Assembly (NCBI RefSeq): GCF_964213995.1
Contig: NW_027591003.1
Coordinates: 1 to 64,000, forward strand
DNA: 64,000 nucleotides
DNA from: Mustelus asterias
Taxonomy: Eukaryota
Direction of reading: 5' to 3'
Both the position numbers and the translations under genes were made by a program. Positions 22,303 to 54,730 of the stretch are shown here, piece by piece. The notes under the pieces are model-generated. The model had not been told where the DNA came from. It searched no databases and saw only the letters and a list, made by a program, of their open reading frames with translations. Numbering within the stretch: position 1 is the stretch's first letter; each line of letters opens with the position of its first letter.

Positions 22303-23179
22303 ATGATCCGGCAGGATTTACTGTTTGATAATCCAGCTGTTTGGCCCCGTTATGAGCACACCTTCCATGGCCATCAAGTCCGGAAGTCGGCCTTGAACCC
22401 TTGAAGAATGAGAGGCGATCCCATTGAAACAGACTTAAAATTCTTACAGGGAGTGACAGGGTGGATGTAGATTGGATGTTTCCCCTGGCTGGTGAGACTA
22501 GAACCAGGGGACACAATCTCAGAATCAGGGGCAGACCATTGAAGACTGAGATAACANNNNNNNNNNNNNNNNNNNNNNNNNNNNNNNNNNNNNNNNNNNN
22601 NNNNNNNNNNNNNNNNNNNNNNNNNNNNNNNNNNNNNNNNNNNNNNNNNNNNNNNNNNNNNNNNNNNNNNNNNNNNNNNNNNNNNNNNNNNNNNNNNNNN
22701 NNNNNNNNNNNNNNNNNNNNNNNNNNNNNNNNNNNNNNNNNNNNNNNNNNNNNNNNNNNNNNNNNNNNNNNNNNNNNNNNNNNNNNNNNNNNNNNNNNNN
22801 NNNNNNNNNNNNNNNNNNNNNNNNNNNNNNNNNNNNNNNNNNNNNNNNNNNNNNNNNNNNNNNNNNNNNNNNNNNNNNGTGTGCGTGTTTTGTGTGTGTG
22901 CGTGTTTTGTGTGTGTTGGTGTGTGCGTGTTTTGTGTGCGTACGTGCCCCATGATCTGTTTGGATGCTGGCGCAGGATCGATGGGCCAAATGGCCTACAC
23001 CTGCTCCTATTTTCCTTTGAGTTTTAAATACATTGACACACACACCGGAGTGTGGGCGACTAGGGGATTCTCACAGTAACTTCATTGTAGTGTTAATGTA
23101 AGCCTACTTCTGAGACTAATAAATAAACTGAAACTGAAGGTCAAGGTGCTGCTGTGACAATGCACTCTTGTTTAAACAC

Positions 23180-23560
23180 TCTGCAATGCTGAGACTGGGA
23201 GAAGTGACCAACAGGGGGCAGCATTGCAGCTTCTGTCCCCCTATTGAAACTGGGATTGTTGCTCCATCTGCTGCACAATCCCAACCCCATCCACTGGGGG
23301 CAACCTGGACAATGGCTGCAGACAGACCTCACTGCGCATGCGAGGCAATGACACCCACCGCCGGCGGCCATTTTGCGTTGCCAAGGGAGACGGCCAGCGG
23401 CCATATTCCGTTGCCAACGGAGATGGCGGCGACCATCTTGCGTTGCCAGGGGAGACGGCATCGATGCGGCGGCGTCCCGCGCGCTGACCTCTGGGTGCAT
23501 TCCCGTCCCGCACATGCGCACAGGCAGCCCCCGGCAGCGTCACAGCGACGCCTGGTGGCC
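23180..23560. promoter_or_regulatory. CpG-rich promoter-like island with CTCF, NRF1 and three YY1+RFX modules
   Basis: CCAACAGGGGGCAG (23208), TGCGCATGCG (23333), three ~32-bp units GCGGCCATTTTG-CGTTGCCAAGGGAGAC (23364-23460), GCACATGCGCA. Motif matches only. Confidence 0.6.
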
Positions 23561-24356
23561 AGGAAGGGCAATAGCAGCAGCACAGTCTCTGCCCAAAGGC
23601 TTCCCCAGTTCAGCTGCTCAGAGACACTGGGAATGTCTTCAAGTGGAAACTTCAGCTTCTCACATTCACCCCCTGTGTTCAGTCATTGTTTCCTAGACAA
23701 CCTCTGTAGTCACATCACAAACAACTTGTTCACACTGAAGGCCATGGCAATCTGGACCATTCGGCTTCAAAGCCATTGAGCTTTGAAACTTCAATTGAAA
23801 TGTTGGAGATGAGAGTTTATCGATGCAAGTCATGTTGCATGTGGAACGCTCATGATGCCACAATTAGAGCGGTGCAGACATCTCACAGGGTTGTGTGACT
23901 GGAGGAGATGTCAGAGACGGGCTGGTTAAATATAGAGGGACAGGGTCTGAAGCTAAGTTTTGGGTAAAAGATGGCAGTAATGTTGTGACATTAATTTAGC
24001 TTCAGATAGTTGCTGGGGAGGGGGATAGAGAGGTTGGGGAGTGATGTTTGTATTGGGGCAATCTCTCTCTCTCTCTCATCATGTATAGATATGAATCCAT
24101 CTCTCACTCTCTATCTCTCTTTACCCATTGTGTCCAGAGTCTTGTGAAGGCGCAGGCCGGTGGCAGGTTCTGTTTCCTGAAGGACATTACCGAACCTGTC
24201 AGATTATTGTGACAATCCAGTAGTTTTCATGATCACTTTTTCCGAGTGGCGGCCCCACAAATGATCAGATTCATTCAGCTCAATTTCACAATCTGCCTTT
24301 GTGTTTTTGTGGGTTCTCTCTCACTTCCTTTTTTCTGTTCGAACTCAATTTCCCAG

Positions 24357-25055
24357 GGTTTTAGAAGAGGAGGATTTGCAGTTTGGAAACTGAAACCAAA
24401 TATGATATCGAAACCTGCTGGAGTTAGCCAATTTATTGTAACCTGAATATCATTGTGTTTTGAACGTGGACGGAAAAAGCACCGTTTTTAGGGGAGAGAA
24501 CCTGTACACATGGTCTGTGTGTGGACAAGACTTCAGCCAATCATCCAGCCTTTCAGAACATAATTGCAGTCACAACAGGGAGAAGCTGTGGAAATGTGGG
24601 GACTGTGGGAAGGGATTCGATTACCCACCCCAGCTGGAGATTCATCGGGGCAGTCACAGTGGGGAGAGACCATTCACCTGCTCCCAGTGTGGGAAGGGAT
24701 TCACTCAGTCCAACAGCTTACATATACACCAGAGAACTCACACTGAGGAGAGGTCATTCACCTGCTCCCAGTGTGGGAGGGGATTCACTCAGTCAAACAG
24801 CTTACATATACACCAGAGAACTCACACTGAGGAGAGGTCATTCACCTGCTCCCAGTGTGGGAGGGGATTCACTCAGTCAAACAGCTTACATATACACCAG
24901 AGAACTCACACTGAGGAGAGGTCATTCACCTGCTCCCAGTGTGGAAAGGGATTCATTACCTCATCCCATCTGCTGAAACATGGGCGAATCCACACTGGAG
25001 AGAGGCCGTTCACTTGCTGTGTGTGTGTGAAGAGATTCACTCAGTCTTCAAACCT
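24357..25055 (+). pseudogene. C2H2 (Kruppel-type) zinc-finger gene, terminal exon, truncated probable pseudogene
   Basis: Acceptor ...AATTTCCCAG at 24356. ORF 24460-25260 has one degenerate finger (Cys to Trp), five complete fingers and a seventh cut after FTQSSNL. No in-frame ATG (GTG at 24466); eroded TEERSF linkers. Confidence 0.85.
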
Positions 25056-25114
25056 CTTTATATGCCCTGTTTGCCCTGTCTTTATATGCCCTGTTTGTGA
25101 ACAGAATTCTCACT

Positions 25115-37337: not shown

Positions 37338-38497
37338 GGGCAGAGATTATTGATACAAGGCCCAGATTGTAATAACTGAGAGAGGTTTCGGGCAGAGATT
37401 ACTGATACAAGGCCCAGATTGTAATTGCTGAGAGAGGTTTAGGGCAGAGATTACTGATACAAGGCCCAGATTGTAATAACAGAGAGAGGTTTCGGGCAGA
37501 GTTTACTGATACAAGGCCCAGATTGTAATAACTGAGAGAGGTTTAGGGCAGAGATTACTGATACAAGGCCCAGATTGTAATAACTGAGAGAGGTTTCAGG
37601 CAGAGATTACTGATACAAAGGCCAGATTGTAATAATTGAGAAAGGTTTATGGCAGAGATTACTGATACAAAGCCCAGATTGTAATAACTGAGAGAGGTTT
37701 AGGGCAGAGATTACTGATACAAGTCCCAGATTGTAATAACTGAGAGAGGTTTAGGGCAGAGATTACTGATACAAAGCCCAGATTGTAATAACAGATAGGT
37801 TTAGGGCAGAGATTACTGATACAAGTCCCAGATTGTAATAACTGAGAGAGGTTTCGGGCATAGTTTACTGATAGAAGGCCCAGATTGTAATAACAGAGAG
37901 AGGTTTCGGGCAGAGTTTACTGATACAAGGCCCAGATTGTAATAACTGAGAGAAGTTTCGGGCAGAGTTTACTGATACAAGGCCCAGATTGTAATAACTG
38001 AGAGAGGTTTAGGGCAGAGATTACTGATACAAGGCCCAAATTGTAATAACTGAGAGAGGTTTCGGGCAGAGATTACTGATACAAGGCCCAAATTGTAATA
38101 ACTGAGAGGTTTAGGGCAGAGATTACTGATACAAGTCCCAGATTGTAATAACTGAGAGAGGTTTCGGGCAGAGTTTACTGATACAGTGCCCAGATTGTAA
38201 TAACTGAGAGAGGTTTCGGGCAGAGTTTACTGATACAGTGCCCAGATTGTAATAACTGAGAGAGGTTTCGGGCAGAGATTACTGATACAAGGCCCATATT
38301 GTAATAACTGAGAGAGGTTTCGGGCAGAGATTACTGATACAAGGCCCAGATTGTAATAACTGAGAGAGGTTTAGGGCAGAGATTACTGATACAAGGCCCA
38401 GATTGTAATAACTGAGAGAGGTTTAGGGCAGAGATTACTGATACAAGGCCCAGATTGTAATAACTGAGAGAGGTTTCGGGCAGAGTTTACTGATACA
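37338..38497. repeat. 52-bp minisatellite, ~22 units
   Basis: Same unit as 21818-22302, expanded. Confidence 0.95.
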
Positions 38498-45425: not shown

Positions 45426-45897
45426 CCTCCCAATTCTTTCCTCCACGATAGGTCGCAGCATTTAAAGAACACGCCCAGGGCCCAGTGCTGAGTCTGAGGG
45501 TATGTGACTACAGTAAGGTGAGTGATACAGGAGGGTCTCACTGTCTGAGGGAGGTGAGTCTTAGCCGGGGGGTGCGTGAGTGACCCAGGTTAATCTGACA
45601 CTCCAGGGACAGTTGGAATGGAGCTTTCCCCCGGGCTGTCCCCTCCCCGTGTCTGCGTGGGTTTCCTCCGGGTGCTCCGGTTTCCTCCCACAGTCTGAAA
45701 GATGTGCTGGTTAGGGTGCATTGGCCATGCTAAATTCTCCCTCAGTGTAACCCGAACAGGCGCCGGAGTGTGGGCGACTAGGGGATTCTCACAGTAACTT
45801 CATTGTAGTGTTAATGTAAGCCTACTTCTGAGACTAATAAATAAACTGAAACTGAAGGTCAAGGTGCTGCTGTGACAATGCACTCTTGTTTAAACAC

Positions 45898-46250
45898 TCT
45901 GCAATGCTGAGACTGGGAGAAGTGACCAACAGGGGGCAGCATTGCAGCTTCTGTCCCCCTATTGAAACTGGGATTGTTGCTCCATCTGCTGCACAATCCC
46001 AACCCCATCCACTGGGGGCAACCTGGACAATGGCTGCAGAGAGACCTCACTGCGCATGCGCAGCAATGACACCCACCGCCGGCGGCCATTTTGCGTTGCC
46101 AAGGGAGGCGGCCAGCGGCCATATTGCGTTGCCAGGGGAGACGGCATCAATGCGGCGGCGTCCCGCGCGCTGACCTCTGGGAGCATTCCCGTCCCGCACA
46201 TGCGCACAGGCAGCCCCCGGCAGCGTCACAGCGACGCCTGGTGGCCAGGA
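45898..46250. promoter_or_regulatory. Second copy of the CTCF/NRF1/YY1/RFX promoter-like island (two modules)
   Basis: Paralog of 23180-23560; perfect NRF1 palindrome TGCGCATGCGCA at 46051-46062. Confidence 0.6.
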
Positions 46251-46840
46251 AGGGCAATAGCAGCAGCACAGTCTCTGCCCAAAGGCTTCCCCAGTTCAGC
46301 TGCTCAGAGACACTGGGAATGTCTTCAAGTGGAAACTTCAGCTTCTCACATTCAGCCCCTGTGTTCAGTCATTGTTTCCGAGACAACCTCTGTAGTCACA
46401 TCACAAACAACTTGTTCACATTGAAGGCCATGGCAATCTGGACCATTCGGCTTCAAAGCCATTGAGCTTTGAAATTTCAATTGAAATGTTGGAGATGAGA
46501 GTTTATCGATGCAAGTCATGTTGCATGTGGAACGCTCACGATGCCACAATTAGAGCGGTGCAGACATCTCACAGGGTTGTGTGACTGGAGGAGATGTCAG
46601 AGACGGGTTGGTTAAATATAGAGGGACACGGTCTGAAGCTAAGTTTTGGGTAAAAGATGGCAGTAATGTTGTGACATTAATTTAGCTTCAGATCGTTGCT
46701 GGGGAGGGGGATAGAGAGGTTGGGGAGCGATGTTTGTATTGGGGCAATCTCTCTCTCTCTCATCATGTATAGATATGAATCCATCTCTCACTCTCTATCT
46801 CTCTTTACCCATTGTCTCCAGAGTCTTGTGAAGGCGCAGA

Positions 46841-47680
46841 CCGGCGGAGAGGGGGGCTGTGGACGCCGGGGTGACCAGAATCGGGGACGTGCTCGATGGC
46901 GGAGGAGCGGGCTGGATGAGTCCCCCCGTGCTGGCTGAGCGCGCAGGGACGTCCGTATGGCGCGCGGCCAAAGCCATCCTAGACCTTAGGACGGTCGCGC
47001 TCGGCCCCGAAACTGCACGCAAACTTGAGACGGCGCAGGCGTGCGGTGGGATCCCGCCCGAGCGTTCCCCTGTTCGGGCGGAATTCCACATTGGCCCAAA
47101 GCCTCAGCCCCCTCCCCTGGGTGAGGAGCCCCACAGCCTGAGCCGCCTCGCGGAAATGCCCTCCGTGCCTTTTTCTACCGCGCGGAGGCGTTTCCTGTGC
47201 GGGCTGCTGCTGCACACCCTCCACTACCGCCTCCTCGCCTGTCGCCCGGATACACCTTGGCGGGCCTTGTTGCCGCCGGGCGGCGGAGGTCCCCGCTGGA
47301 GGTCCCTCTACGGAGGGATCTCCCCCAATTACGTCGGGGACCTGGAGTGGAGGGTGATGCATGCAGCAGTTCCGCACAACCGTAGGGTTCACTGGTTCAC
47401 GGGCTCCGAAGACTGCCCTTTCTGTGGCCTTGTGGAGTCCGTGGACCATGTCTATGTTGAGTGTCTTAGGCTGCACTCCCTTTATGTTTTTCTAAAGATC
47501 CTTTTATTGATGTTTTGTTTGCACTTCAGTCCCACGCTCCTGATCTACGGACACCCGGTGCGGAGAGGGGAGGGTCGGGATGGCGACCTCCTCGTGAACC
47601 TGCTCCTGGGCCTGGCGAAACGCGCCATTTACCGGTCCAGGCAGCGGGCGATCGAGGGGGCCGTCCATCCTGACTGTGTT
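46841..47680 (+). mobile_element. Tx1/L1-clade retrotransposon ORF2 C-terminal fragment (zf-RVT-like)
   Basis: ORF 46859-47725: DLEWRVMHAAV...CPFCGLVESVDHVYVECLRL...LLLGLAKRAIYRSR; CpG-rich; truncated at both ends. Confidence 0.9.
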
Positions 47681-48380
47681 CGTATGAGTGAGAGAGAGCA
47701 TGGGAATGTGTGTGAGACGAAGTGAGAGTGTACGGAAGAGGGAATGTGAGAGGGATAGTGCATGTGTGTGTGTGAGAGAGAGAATGTGTGCGCGAGACTG
47801 TGCTTATGTGAGAGACTGTGTCTGTGTGTAAGAATGTGTGTTAGAGTGTGTGCATGTTCTATGTTTGTGAGAGAGTGATTGTGAGAGAGCCAGTGTGTGA
47901 GAACAAGAATGTAGAGGTGTGAGATAGTGTGCGCAAGAAAAATAGAAATATGTGCGTGTGTGTGAGAGCGAGAGATGCGTGTGCAAGAGGAATTGTGAGA
48001 GAGCATGTGAAGAAATGTGAGACAGCTTGAGCGTGTGTGACAGAGAGTGGAAGAGAGAGAGTGCATGTGAGAGTGCGTGCGCGAGAGTGTGAGACTGTGC
48101 TTATGTGAGAGTGTGTGTCTGTGTATAAGAGAGAATGGGTGTGTGTGTGGGGATGTGAGCGCTTTTGTGTATGGGGATGTGAGAGATTGATGGAGAGAGC
48201 GAGACGATGTATGTATTTGTATTGAGAGAGTGTATGAGTAACGTGAGAGAGAGAATGTGTATGGGTGTGTAAGAGAGACCGTATGAGAGAGAAAGTAAGT
48301 GTGAGTATGTATGTGTGTGTGTGTGCATGTGTGAGAGAATATGAGAGTATTTATGTGTGTGAGAGTGTGTGATGTGTATA
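47681..48380. repeat. Degenerate GA/GT simple-sequence tract
   Basis: Directly visible. Confidence 0.9.
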
Positions 48381-51300
48381 AGTTTCTATTTGGCTGATTC
48401 AGTCTGGAAAACACACTCACTCCACACATACTCACCCATTCACACAGTAAGTGGGAGTGACAAGTGAGCACAATACGGAGCGCGGGCCAAGGGTTGGAAA
48501 AACATTTAAATCTTTCGCAATTCGTCGCAATTGAATAATTTCCTCTTTCCTCAATGAGGGAAACCTGTAAAAACTCAAGAAATTTGACACAATCCAGGGC
48601 AAAGCCACCCACAGGATTATCCGCCCCCTCATTCACCCTATTCTCTCTCTCCATCACTAACAAGCAGTGACAGTAGTGTGTATTATATACAAGACGCACT
48701 GCAGCAACTCACCAAGGCTCCATAGTAAACACTGTCCAAACCCGTTGCCTTTATATCCTAACAGGATAAGGGCAGCAGCCACATATGAACACTACCACCT
48801 GCAAGCTCCCCTCCAAGACACACACCATCCTGACTTGAAACAATACCTCAGTTCCTTCTGGGTCAAAATCCTGGAACTTCCGCCTAACAGCACGGCGGAT
48901 GCCTGCAGCATATTGATTGCAGTTATTCAAGGATGCTTCATATCAACACTTTCTCAAGGAACAATTATTGATGATTAAAGCTTCTGGCCGAGCAAATGAC
49001 TCTAAAATAGCTTTAGAAGATTAAAAATAAGATGCAAATGAATTTGAACCTTCAACTGTCATACCAAACAGGTCATGGACTGCTTTACTACGGAGCATAA
49101 TATAGTAAATCTCACTTTGTATTTGCTCATCGAACATTCCCAAGGCCGGTACATGACTGGTTAAAAATCATCCAAATCTCCCTCTACAATCTGACGTTTC
49201 TGCTCTCTCTGATGGTCACAATATGCTTTAGGGATCTCATTTCTGAGACGCCGAGCCAAACATCAAGTCAAACTGTCACATTTCTCACAGATACCAGTTT
49301 ATTGAAGAAATAAATCAAATTTCACTCCCTGAAATACAGCAGAAGGAACCAGCAGTTTTACAACCAGTCAGGCAGTTTCCTGGCCCCAACACGGTGACCA
49401 CGCGCGCAGAAACAGAACAGACACAAACGGTGCAACAATCGATTTTCCAGCGGGTAGGGATGATCAATCAGTCAATTTAATTCAAACTGTTTGATTCTAA
49501 TTGATCAATGATCAATTTACAACAGAAAATCAATAACCTCTTTTAAATAAAACTGATATTCATTTCAAAACTCCTGTCGATTTTTAATTATGTCTCTCTG
49601 CCTGTCTCACTTCTCGAAAACTATGTAAAAATGTAATTTCGCTGAAAATTAGGAATCAAAAATAACAGATTCAGGACAGTTCAATGTCCCCGACAGAGAT
49701 ACAGTGACACAGTAAGGATTAAATAAACCAAGAAACATTTACATTGAAAATCATTACCTGATTCGATCTAATTTCTTAATTAAATGTAATCAACAAAATA
49801 TTCGAGGTAAAACACCTTATCGAGCTAAGCATAGCTGATGAAAGAAAGGTTTTGTTTCTGAATTCATTTTCGATACAATTAAACATTCTCTGAAACGGAT
49901 GATACTTTGCACGCCCGTGCATTATTCAAGGTATTTTGTTTTGAATTAATTAGCACCAATATTATATTTTGTTTTGTTAATTGCCGGTTACTTTTCCTGT
50001 TAGCTGATTTGTACTCCCTAATAAAATCAGTTTTCAATCATTCAAAACTTTCCCTGCCTCGAACATTGTGAAGTAATTAGGTTCCAATTAAATATTAAAC
50101 GATAAACTTCAAATTACTGAATGGAAAGATTCAGACATCTGTAATTCATTTGCTTCAATCGAATAACATTGTCATGTTTTTTCATTTCCACTTTTACTCC
50201 AAATGCCTTATTATAACCTGCAAACGTGTTAAGAATGCATGTTTCTGACTTTGTATATACTGTAACGGCCTGGCAGTTTGAGGTCAATGAAGCTGCTTCC
50301 GAGATTTAATAATTTGGACCATCCATATAATTTAATTACTGAACATATTGTTTAAATTAAGAAGTTCTGAATTAAACAATGAAAAACACAATGAGGACAA
50401 TTGATTCAAATCCTCTGCAACACTGAAACATGATGCACAAAATAAGTCGAGACTTTCTCTTCAGTATAATATTTAATACTAATTAAACACAATGCTCAAA
50501 TAGAATCAATTCTTCCATTCTGTCATTTATTCATCCAATAATTCTATTCTATGTTCAGCAGTAATGGGAGACAGGATGTTATTATTAAATGCAGCGCAAA
50601 TATTACTCATATAAAAATATGATAATATTATAAAAAATTAATTAATTGAATTTCAAGTCTTAAATTGTAAATCTCGAGCCAGTTTCTGTTGACACCTTAC
50701 GACAATTCAAACACCATTATATGAACAATTGTTTAGTGTTAGCGAATTCCACCTGTCAGAAAACTGTGTTCACTCTGTCAAATTTATTTAAACTGTGAGA
50801 TTCTAATTGATCAATTTTCCAACTACAACAACAAAAATCAATAACTTCTTTTAAATTAAACTGATATTCATTTCAAAATTCCCTTCGAATTTTAACTATT
50901 TCTCCCTGTCTATCTCAAATCTCGAAAACTAGGCAAAAAATATTTTTTTTTCTGAAAATGTGCACATCAGATATAACCGATCCAGGGTAGTGTAATGTCC
51001 CTAACAGAGATACAGTGACGCAGTAAGAATTGTAATTCATGATTTACTTTAATCTGCAAGCATCAGTTAACATGAATAAAATGCTCAAATATATATTTGT
51101 TTTATTTTTTCCGATACCAGTTTGTTTTATCCTGACAAGGATGTTTAAACGCAGTTTGTTTTTTTCATTTAGCGGGAAAAAGTGTAACCGCTCAGGATCA
51201 CCGAGTTGAAACAATACAGAAACAATTGAGAAACACCAAACCATTTCACAAATTTTGAGATGAGATTAGTGATTAATTATCTCTGCATCCAACTACAAAT

Positions 51301-53251
51301 TACTTGGAAGGAATGCTGCGCCTGCACAGAAACAATGTAATAATCGGGCACAAAAATTGCCAAATAGCGTTTTATTGCCAATTATTCACCAAAACTCATA
51401 TTTAAGTGAATGCGAACTTCATCGGGGATATAACAATTAATGCAAAGTATCTTGTTGAACTGAGCGCTGCTGTGGAAACAGCATGTTATCAGTGAAATAG
51501 TTTCTGGAATTATCACAAAATATTTCCAGCCGAGAAACTTTTTTGGTCATGTTAATTGTATGCAAAGCACAGCAGAACTATTAAAGCCGATTAATGCGAA
51601 ATGATATGAATAGAAAATAATCTTTTGTGAATATGTAGTTATGTTACCGATTAATAACAGTTTGATTTATATTAATTTTACTGTCAAACTTGTTAATGAG
51701 AAGTTTGTTTTTGCAGCAACTACTTAGTGTCCGATTGAACGTTGTAAGACATGATTTATTTTAATTTCTAAGAGTTAGTTAAAATTTATAAAAATGCTGT
51801 AATACCTTTATTTTATTTCTTTCACAACCTGCTTATTTTCTTCCTACAAGGATTTTCAAACTCATAGATTATTTGCATTTAACCAGAAAACGTGTAACCG
51901 CTCAGTGCCACCGAGTTTAAACAATGCAGAAACACCAAAACATTTCACACATTTTAAACATTCTTAGTGACCTAACAACAGAACCTCCTCAACAGAAACA
52001 CACCAAAACACATCAATGAGGGAATGAATCCGTTTCACGGGGACGCAACTCAATTATCCATTCAACAAAATCAAAAATATGATTGCAAGGAAATCTCAAT
52101 ATTCAATCCGGTAAACCAGCTCGTCACCAAATATATGAATGATTGAACTAAACAGAAATTTGGAATAAGAGCAATAGCATTGCGAGGAGGTGGAATATGT
52201 CCAACAAATTAATATTGAAATTTTACCACATTCTATTCATATTGGGTCATATTTCAAACAGATTTCAAACATATTTAAATATTGGGTGGGTAAAAGCTGC
52301 AGCCGTCAGATGCCACCGAGGTTAAACATGGCATGTATCCCAAATTGTGAATGCAGTGGCAAACTATGTTTTGGACGAGTGGCATAAACCGTGGTTTGGT
52401 TTAACCTGCACTTATCAGCTCCGATTTAAAAAAAATACAAATACAATAAAGCCTGCCTGATTTCTGTCTGCAGGCACACGTCAAGTAGTTTAAAACCCGC
52501 AGACTGTTTGTATTCAATCACAAAATGTGTAACAGCTCAGTGTCACCGAGTGTAAACAATGCAGAATCTCCGAACCATTTCACAAATTTTACTTATTCAA
52601 AGTCACCCAGACAGACAACCTCCTCACCAGAAACACGCAGCACTGAGGGACTGAACCCCGGTTCATGCAGAAGCAGCTCAATTCTACAAACAGTTGCAAC
52701 AGAATCAAATTTCACATTGGCAGAAAATCTCAATTTAAAATCCAGCCAACCTGACCATCACCAAAGCAACTAATGATTAAAATGAGCACAACAATGACAT
52801 AACAAAACCAGATTGTGATTAAGCGGAACATGTTCGCAACATTAAAGCAGAAACTTTAACACATTTTGTTAATATTGGGTTAGATTTTAAACACTTGTGC
52901 AGTAGATGGTGCAACTCGCAGCCACTAGATGTCACCGAGATTAAACATTGAAGAAACGCCGAACTGTTTAACAAAAGGAAGGCATTTATAGTAACCCAGC
53001 CACACAATGTCCTCAGCAGATAAACACCAAATCACAACAAGAGACTGAATCACTCAGTATCATCTTTTGTCAATTAACAGTAGAATTCTATAACCCCCAT
53101 TTTAAGCAGGATCACATGAAACATTGAAAAGATTTTCAGCACAGAATCCACCAAACCACATTACATTGAACGAATGAATTAATAAAATCGAGAAAAAGTA
53201 TAAAACAAAAACTCAAATAAAACACTGACTATTTAAAGGCATGGTTCTTAC

Positions 53252-53301
53252 CTGCAGTCACCGTCACCATGGTCCCTTGTCCCCAGTAGCCCCCCAGTTA
53301 T
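53252..53301 (-). CDS. IGHJ: Germline-joined D2-JH segment of an Ig heavy-chain cluster
   Basis: ATAACTGGGGGG-C TAC TGG GGA CAA GGG ACC ATG GTG ACG GTG ACT GCA G|GTAAG = YWGQGTMVTVTA with a phase-1 donor; preceded by a 12-RSS. Confidence 0.9.
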
Positions 53302-53329
53302 CACAGTGAGACACAGCATGACAAATACT
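53302..53329 (-). other. 12-RSS 5' of D2-J
   Basis: Plus strand CACAGTG (53302-53308), 12-bp spacer, ACAAATACT (53321-53329). Confidence 0.92.
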
Positions 53330-53629: not shown

Positions 53630-53712
53630 GGTTTTTGTATGAGGATGTCGCTGTGCTCAGCACTGTGACCCCCCACTGCTGTATCACAGTGACAGACACT
53701 CGCACAAAAACT
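53630..53712 (-). other. IGHD: IgH D1 segment (coding 53668-53684, ATACAGCAGTGGGGGGT) with 5' 12-RSS and 3' 22-RSS
   Basis: Plus strand GGTTTTTGT-22-CACTGTG-[17 nt]-CACAGTG-12-ACAAAAACT; open in all three frames. Confidence 0.95.
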
Positions 53713-54083: not shown

Positions 54084-54122
54084 TGTTCTTGTCCGGGTCC
54101 AACCCTGGTTCCTCTCGCTGTG
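54084..54122 (-). other. 23-RSS of VH
   Basis: Minus strand CACAGCG, 23-bp spacer (54093-54115), ACAAGAACA. Confidence 0.92.
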
Positions 54123-54427
54123 GTCTCTTGCACAGTAATAGATGGCGGTGTCTTCGGTCTTCAGCCTCGTCATTTCCAAAGAGAAGATGTTGCTTGAAGT
54201 GTCTTTGGACGCACTAAATCGATCCTTAATTGCTGGGACGTAGTTGTTGCTAGATGAAGAGTAGTAGTAAAGCAACCACTCCAGCCCCTGTCCGGGAACC
54301 TGTCGGATCCAGTGCATGGAGTAGCTGCCAAGATCGAAGCCGCTGGTTTTACAGGTCAGTGTCAGGGAGCCTCCGGGACGCCCGGTCTCTGCCTCTGGCT
54401 GAGTCAACACAACCTCCGACTGGACAC
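54123..54427 (-). CDS. IGHV: Ig heavy-chain variable segment, shark IgM-type VH exon
   Basis: Acceptor TTTTTACAG|GT; (G)[51 protein letters not shown]...[11 protein letters not shown]; conserved Cys/Trp/YYC; no stops. Confidence 0.97.
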
Positions 54428-54551: not shown

Positions 54552-54597
54552 CGGATAAGAAACTCAACAACAAACTGAGAGAAATCGCCGACCTCAT
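54552..54597 (-). CDS. IGHV: VH leader (signal peptide) exon
   Basis: MRSAISLSLLLSFLS+G, 46 nt, donor G|GTAAGT; 124-bp intron; phase matches the V exon. Confidence 0.95.
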
Positions 54598-54679: not shown

Positions 54680-54730
54680 TGAGCGGCATTTAAATACCCG
54701 GCAGAAGGGGGCGGCTTTCCAGGCGCCGCC
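54680..54730 (-). promoter_or_regulatory. Probable VH core promoter (TATA-like plus GC box, no octamer nearby)
   Basis: TATTTAAAT ~90 bp upstream of the ATG (54688-54696), with GGGGGCGG immediately upstream. Confidence 0.5.

What the first reader, a model, noticed from the sequence alone, without database searches (positions are those of the whole stretch)
46841..53251. Orphan Ig cluster: no constant exons, J-C intron cut by a rearrangement
I find no C1-set Ig exon downstream (minus strand) in 53 kb. About 5.6 kb after J the sequence becomes GA/GT repeat, then a Tx1 piece with neither end, then the ZNF-type duplication. V, leader, promoter and all RSSs nonetheless look intact. Options: a recent truncation, or a donor of VDJ exons for use with another C region. 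Use of VDJ with another cluster's C, and IgHV-TCR delta chimeras, are described in sharks.
Basis: partly seen in the sequence, partly recalled or inferred. Interest (0 to 1): 0.7.

Follow-up and report, generated by a model that had tools for sequence, protein, structure and literature searches.

The report
Shark IgM gene missing constant exons
This shark antibody gene has an intact-looking front half, but its intron ends in a retrotransposon fragment and a broken zinc-finger gene with no constant exons in the 53 kb that follow, so it is most likely a dead copy left by an inherited deletion rather than a working donor of antibody parts.

Summary
The observation largely holds. A shark IgM leader-V-D-J unit lies on the minus strand and no constant exon follows in 53 kb. 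Two corrections: the GA/GT repeat is native J-C intron, and the cut lies at its far end, 47,676-47,677, 5,575 nt after J. Also, D2 is already fused to J (V-D1-D2J), so only 4 of the usual 6 RSSs exist; this scan noted that layout before on other DNA. An 835-nt Tx1 piece, cut at both ends with 2-nt overlaps, joins the intron to a zinc-finger gene that lacks its coding exon. The two genes converge and both lost their 3' ends, so one germline deletion is the simplest reading (0.7). The intact V is weak evidence of function: a neutral simulation keeps it intact 18-50% of the time at 1-2% drift, and it carries three unusual residues. No listed contig bridged either junction, so misassembly stays open (0.12). 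Use as a VDJ donor is possible but unsupported (0.1). Ordinary decay of a shark Ig minilocus; low interest.

The parts
54689..54696 (-). TATA-like box of the VH promoter (no octamer within 200 nt of the ATG)
   Evidence: motif scan
54552..54597 (-). Leader exon
   Evidence: the 124-nt leader intron is spliced out at these places in a contig of run X20 (table 5)
54123..54427 (-). IgM-type VH exon, open frame, both Cys and Trp present; rare residues T22, V63, S71
   Evidence: Pfam V-set E=1e-19; 73-78% to shark mu chains, 95% over 63 aa to a Mustelus asterias model
54084..54122 (-). V 23-RSS (heptamer 1 mismatch, nonamer 2 mismatches)
53685..53712 (-). D1 5' 12-RSS
53668..53684 (-). D1 segment (one frame reads TAVGG)
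   Evidence: TAVG recurs in CDR3 of P0046 and P0058
53630..53667 (-). D1 3' 22-RSS, perfect consensus
53302..53329 (-). 12-RSS ahead of the D2-J fusion (inferred to be the 5' RSS of D2)
   Evidence: 366 nt from D1, like a D1-D2 interval
53252..53301 (-). Fused D2-JH (J trimmed to GYWGQGTMVTVTA), followed by an intact GT donor
   Evidence: no J 23-RSS in the RSS scan
47678..53251 (-). Retained J-C intron, about 5.6 kb, with three internal duplications and a multi-copy counterpart in related datasets
48660..48980 (.). High-copy interspersed repeat piece inside the intron, shared with paralogous introns (LINE-like by recall, no Pfam hit)
   Evidence: depth and pieces
47678..48380 (.). Degenerate GA/GT repeat (CA/CT on the sense strand); native intron
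   Evidence: contigs of depth 199-288 in X1; X5 record 21 goes on past the break in the same kind of repeat
47676..47677 (.). Right junction: intron to Tx1, 2-nt overlap (possibly up to 4 nt with a Tx1 variant)
   Evidence: loose ends at 47,676, 47,677 and 47,681
46843..47677 (+). Tx1 ORF2 C-terminal fragment, cut at both ends, lacks the last 48 codons and any tail
   Evidence: zf-RVT E=0.0046, below Pfam cut-off
46843..46844 (.). Left junction: ZNF segment to Tx1, 2-nt overlap
   Evidence: loose ends; side-by-side print
45763..46844 (+). ZNF-family promoter and (inferred) intron, without the finger exon
   Evidence: 95.4% to 23,045-24,163; only one finger exon in the window
24442..25060 (+). 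C2H2 finger exon of the complete ZNF copy, used as reference
   Evidence: zf-C2H2 E=6.7e-31

Best explanation
This is a shark IgM minilocus (leader, V, D1, fused D2-J) whose J-C intron stops 5,575 nt after J at a Tx1 fragment joined to an exon-less zinc-finger gene, likely because one germline deletion removed the Cmu exons and left a pseudogene. Shown: the anatomy, both junctions to the base, 2-nt overlaps at each, and the native origin of the GA/GT repeat. Inferred: the Ig gene (minus) and the ZNF gene (plus) pointed towards each other and lost their 3' ends together by end-joining repair. The Tx1 was either already sitting in the ZNF intron as a 5'-truncated insertion and was then cut by the deletion, or was captured as a patch at the break. 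Also inferred: the D2-J join is an earlier RAG event in a germ cell. V and D1 could still rearrange onto D2J, but the transcript would have no constant exon and make no heavy chain.
For: No C, secretory or TM exon in six frames. Tx1 family contigs leave the window at 47,677 and go on in Tx1 frame (11, 17, 3 and 9 contigs in X1, X4, X5, X6), while X5 record 21 matches 47,676-47,975 with 9 differences and 2 gap letters and goes on in GA/GT repeat. ZNF contigs leave at 46,844, Tx1 contigs enter at 46,843. Nurse shark J-to-Cmu1 is 6.3-6.8 kb (PMC2435157, Introduction read), so the cut falls shortly before the expected Cmu1. A near-identical J is spliced to Cmu1 (ATPSPPTLYS) in one X20 contig, so this family normally has Cmu. 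Neutral simulation: 43-50% intact at 1% drift, 18-25% at 2%. V has T22 (0 of 18 shark VH), V63 (1 of 19), S71 (0 of 19); the two V-exon rows among the 40 listed are these V63 and S71 changes, against nearly all contigs laid there.
Against: None of the 32 listed pieces (of 5,615) bridged either junction, and no genome was held, so neither the junction nor the fate of the C exons was seen independently; an inversion or translocation would look the same from this side. No stop, frameshift or splice defect in leader, V, D1 or J. The 1.8% figure comes from 20 hand-picked pieces under about 5% difference (more diverged pieces left out, one contig counted twice) from what is probably another species, so the drift since the break is not measured. 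The three rare residues are few and one lies next to CDR2.
Confidence: 0.7

Rival explanations
1. The junction is an assembly artefact: two different Tx1-flanked loci were joined inside the 835-nt Tx1 piece, or a chimeric or single-lymphocyte molecule was assembled, and the real cluster has its Cmu.
For: No listed contig bridges either junction (32 of 5,615 pieces shown). Tx1 and the ZNF segment are both high-copy (depth in the thousands or more). V-D-DJ is a known somatic intermediate in shark lymphocytes (PMC2435157 passages).
Against: Both junctions are base-precise fusions of unrelated sequences with 2-nt overlaps, which repair makes and repeat collapse does not (inference). There is no N gap nearby. 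The window resolves 97-99% identical multi-kb duplications, so an 835-nt repeat should be spanned. The laid runs hold at most 0.58 of the words and differ at fixed sites, so they are probably not the same animal or species.
Confidence: 0.12
2. The unit is a functional C-less donor: it rearranges, and AID-driven recombination in the retained 5.6-kb intron moves its VDJ onto another cluster's C region, or its V joins TCR delta D-J in T cells.
For: Promoter box, leader, V, four RSSs and J donor are intact and 12/23-compatible. Nurse shark V regions are expressed with C regions of clusters over 120 kb away (review PMC4279169, passages). [quoted passage not shown] An unchecked scan note places another IgM J-Cmu intron 60,460 nt beyond this window.
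Against: Intactness is expected without selection and the V has three rare residues. No TCR segment in the window. Switching is described as concurrent with hypermutation after immunisation, so it would act in cells already selected on another cluster's receptor (inference). Any complete cluster can donate as well, so loss of C gives no advantage.
Confidence: 0.1
3. The break is an inversion or translocation end rather than a deletion, and the Cmu exons survive elsewhere without their V-D-J.
For: The window shows one side only; L1-type patches accompany translocations as well as deletions (PMC1920257, abstract and two sections).
Against: The convergent orientation and the loss of both 3' ends need only one deletion. 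No other Tx1 piece and no reciprocal intron piece lies in the window.
Confidence: 0.08

Closest known systems
Elasmobranch IgM minilocus VH-D1-D2-JH-Cmu (nurse shark, PMC2435157, Introduction and passages read; horn shark, PMC2191167, abstract read)
   Same: Leader-V, about 400-nt spacing of segments (438 and 366 nt), V 23-RSS, mu-type V and J sequence, multi-kb J-C intron.
   Different: D2 is fused to J, and no C exon follows.
Partly germline-joined IgH clusters (VD-J, VD-DJ, VDJ; review PMC5192425, passages and section 6.1; mechanism PMC2193156, passages)
   Same: A coding join with both inner RSSs removed and the J 5' end trimmed.
   Different: The layout is V-D-DJ, which the passages I read list as a somatic intermediate and not among germline forms. 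Germline status is inferred, not tested.
Non-classical (endonuclease-independent) L1 insertions (Sen et al. 2007, PMC1920257, abstract and two Results sections read)
   Same: A retroelement piece with short overlaps at both junctions, no tail, associated with loss of flanking DNA.
   Different: Tx1 clade in a shark; the pre-insertion state is unknown, and insertion followed by deletion fits equally well.
Shark inter-cluster switching and IgHV-TCR delta chimeras, TAILV (seen only through PMC4279169, PMC12227049, PMC5931798; Zhu et al. 2012 was not held)
   Same: A rearrangement-competent VH with homologous intron could in principle be a substrate.
   Different: The passages I saw describe no donor cluster that has lost its own C region, and there is no transcript or TCR linkage evidence here.

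Membership tests
Elasmobranch IgM minilocus | mu-type VH with leader and 23-RSS | tested here: met
Elasmobranch IgM minilocus | Two free D segments and a JH with its own 23-RSS | tested here: not met
   one free D (12/22); J carries a 12-RSS and a D2-like head
Elasmobranch IgM minilocus | Cmu exons about 6-7 kb after J | tested here: not met
   so filed as a truncated derivative, not a complete locus
Partly germline-joined IgH cluster | Coding join with inner RSSs removed | tested here: met
Partly germline-joined IgH cluster | Join present in non-lymphoid DNA or shared between animals | tested here: inconclusive
   one search listed no DNA-run piece across 53,290-53,302; X20 record 11 has a D2-J join with 15 gap letters in another organism
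Tx1-clade non-LTR retrotransposon fragment | ORF2 similarity to Tx1-type EN-RT proteins | tested here: met
   (71% to P0075; 28% to a protein named YTX2)
Non-classical L1-type insertion (break patch) | No 3' tail, short overlaps at both junctions | tested here: met
Non-classical L1-type insertion (break patch) | Pre-insertion allele without the element shows insertion and deletion were one event | not testable with these tools
   no genome or orthologous locus held
Switch or trans-rearrangement donor | Transcripts joining this VDJ or V to another C region | not testable with these tools
   no RNA holder listed for this stretch
TCR delta-associated IgH V (TAILV-like) | Location inside the TCR alpha/delta locus | tested here: inconclusive
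   no second V and no C domain in 64 kb; wider linkage unseen

The most novel reading that the evidence does not exclude
A shark IgM cluster that lost its constant region in the germline still rearranges and supplies VDJ exons to a neighbouring cluster's Cmu (or V exons to TCR delta). It would be an obligate switch donor and a natural intermediate between the cluster layout and a shared-C translocon, and its private V changes would let every use be traced.
Probability: 0.1. Interest if true: 0.75.

Novelty: new member of a known kind. Interest (0 to 1): 0.27.

Why it matters
As a pseudogene it is a well-resolved example of how shark Ig miniloci die among zinc-finger arrays and Tx1 elements, and it carries a V-D-DJ join. 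It has one practical use. Because it has no C region of its own, any transcript joining its marked V (V63, S71) to a C exon must come from inter-cluster recombination, trans-rearrangement or trans-splicing, which makes it a clean natural reporter for shark isotype switching.

Tried and rejected
No whole genome was held, so flanking scaffold and sibling clusters could not be read. Run search: no RNA holder listed; this says nothing about expression. C exons hidden in N runs: rejected on size, place and flanks. GA/GT repeat as the breakpoint or as part of the ZNF unit: rejected. A switch-like region in the retained intron: AGCT counts were 0-4 per 500 nt, no array. A cryptic RSS at the break: the native flank has a CAC at the cut but, read by eye, only 4 of 9 nonamer matches at 12-nt spacing, and V and D1 RSSs are unused; rejected. 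A cryptic replacement exon: the two acceptor-like sites found within 9 kb of J open frames of 19 and 3 codons (strict pattern). Reciprocal Tx1 or intron pieces in the window: none. TCR C domains were not available as queries; they were covered only by the general C-domain HMM. Literature: one search for C-less shark IgH clusters returned 0 papers at 5 of 6 terms; two word searches of earlier scan notes returned 0. The library lacks most subscription papers, and no supplements were read, so this is not proof of absence from print. Zhu et al. 2012 was not held, so the position of real switch junctions in the intron could not be checked.

Full report
Anatomy. The minus strand carries a shark IgM heavy-chain front end: TATA-like box at 54,696, leader 54,597-54,552, a 124-nt intron, and a V exon 54,427-54,123 with an open frame. 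The V is mu-type: 73-78% identical to shark mu chains and 95% over 63 residues to a Mustelus asterias gene model. The RSS scan found four good signals in the cluster: V 23, D1 12 and 22, and a 12-RSS directly ahead of J. A normal shark cluster is VH-D1-D2-JH with a 23-RSS on J (PMC2435157, Introduction). Here the 12-RSS lies 366 nt from D1, is followed by about ten D-like bases and then a J trimmed to GYWGQGTMVTVTA. I read this as a D2-J join, giving V-D1-D2J. D1 reads TAVGG in one frame, and TAVG appears in the CDR3 of 2 of the 10 shark chains printed. One X20 contig from another organism also runs from the D2 upstream flank into J, with 15 gap letters (record 11). Whether the join is germline was not shown. 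V-D-DJ is a known somatic intermediate; the review passages list VD-J, VD-DJ and VDJ as germline forms. Earlier scan notes report V-D-DJ in another genome and a D2-J join on another piece of this one (unchecked).

No constant region. tblastn with 23 heavy-chain proteins hit V and J only; the best other hit was E=0.007 in low-complexity sequence. An HMM of 69 C domains gave only the V at E=0.013, and a version built from 13 non-shark domains recovered 42 of 56 shark C domains, so the search has reasonable but not full sensitivity. Secretory and transmembrane tails gave nothing better than E=0.042. The 11 N runs are 128-462 nt and none lies above 26,305; their flanks are mostly simple repeat. 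One X20 contig joins a near-identical J to the start of Cmu1, so this V-J family normally has Cmu.

Where the intron ends. Contigs from related shark datasets cover the retained intron at multi-copy depth down to 48,400 and through the GA/GT repeat (depth 199-288 for listed X1 pieces). X5 record 21 (641 nt) matches 47,676-47,975 with 9 differences and 2 gap letters and continues in more GA/GT repeat instead of Tx1. Tx1 family contigs match up to 47,677 and continue in the Tx1 frame (11, 17, 3 and 9 contigs in the four runs). The break is therefore at 47,676-47,677 with a 2-nt overlap, 5,575 nt after the J donor. In nurse shark Cmu1 lies 6.3-6.8 kb from the segments, so the cut is likely just short of it.

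The other side. The Tx1 piece (46,843-47,677, plus strand) matches residues 295-574 of a 622-aa homologue at 71% and lacks its last 48 residues; against a 1304-aa relative it starts at residue 977. ZNF-family contigs match to 46,844 and Tx1 contigs start at 46,843, again a 2-nt overlap. The segment 45,763-46,847 is 95.4% identical to 23,045-24,163, which leads into the window's only finger exon. So a plus-strand ZNF gene without its coding exon faces a minus-strand Ig gene without its C exons.

Mechanism. The simplest account is one germline deletion between two convergent genes, repaired by end-joining (inferred). Horn shark clusters span about 18-20 kb (PMC2191167, abstract), so roughly 10 kb or more of Ig sequence would be gone. 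Two routes fit the Tx1: a 5'-truncated insertion in the ZNF intron later cut by the deletion, or capture at the break as in non-classical L1 insertions, which show short overlaps at both ends and accompany deletions and translocations (PMC1920257). I cannot separate them. Earlier notes describe a Tx1 that targets ZNF exon 1 in this genome (unchecked); here the left junction corresponds to about 200 nt upstream of what I read by eye as the finger-exon acceptor, so it is not that site.

Is the intact front end meaningful? Twenty hand-picked contig pieces under about 5% difference gave 115 substitutions in 6,508 nt (1.8%); more diverged pieces were left out and one contig was counted twice. That is a rough upper bound on drift since the break. 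Under neutral drift the leader, V, J frame, splice sites and RSS cores survive in 65-71% of trials at 0.5%, 43-50% at 1%, 18-25% at 2% and 3-6% at 4%. The V also has T22 (0 of 18 shark VH), V63 (1 of 19) and S71 (0 of 19); the last two differ from nearly all contigs laid there. This leans weakly towards relaxed selection.

Against my reading. No listed piece bridged either junction (32 shown of 5,615). The runs are probably from other animals or species (best share 0.58), so this neither confirms nor refutes the assembly. No hard inactivating change exists in V-D-J. Inter-cluster switching over more than 120 kb (review PMC4279169) and IgHV-TCR delta chimeras are documented, and an unchecked note places another IgM J-Cmu intron 60,460 nt beyond this window. 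The donor reading thus stays possible at about 0.1, misassembly or a somatic molecule at 0.12, and an inversion or translocation end at 0.08.

Novelty. Pseudogene clusters and partly joined clusters are known in sharks. I found no paper on a C-less shark IgM cluster (eight searches returned results), but the library lacks most of the primary shark Ig papers, the switching paper included, and no supplements were read. Verdict: a real, precisely broken IgM minilocus, most likely a pseudogene; new member of a known kind; interest 0.27, with value as a reporter of inter-cluster recombination.

Noticed in passing
window:53252-53329: D2-J fusion giving a V-D-DJ cluster; the J frame begins with a TAA inside the D2 part, so a productive join would need trimming.
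   Followed up: partly
window:12512-24163 and 25077-46847: Large tandem duplication (blocks 95-99% identical) around a single ZNF finger exon; the first copy has no finger exon ahead of 12,512 either, and the second has three extra stretches (31.2-35.3, 38.7-39.5, 39.7-45.8 kb).
   Followed up: partly
window:21818-22303 and 37338-38497: 52-nt minisatellite with 9.2 and 22.4 copies in the two duplicated units.
   Followed up: no
window:24604-25046: ZNF exon with three near-identical 84-nt finger repeats (96% match) whose last finger runs into unrelated sequence.
   Followed up: no
window:49461-52893: Three internal duplications in the J-C intron (70-79% identical, 230-420 nt), with one octamer at 51,878 and another in reverse at 49,039.
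   Followed up: no
window:1-4111: About 4 kb of TC-rich 16-nt minisatellite and microsatellite with masked stretches at the window start.
   Followed up: no
P0046 (Mustelus asterias gene model): A genome-derived model whose CDR3 reads as D1 (TAVG), a D2-like piece and J in frame with Cmu1; possibly a fully germline-joined relative of this cluster.
   Followed up: no
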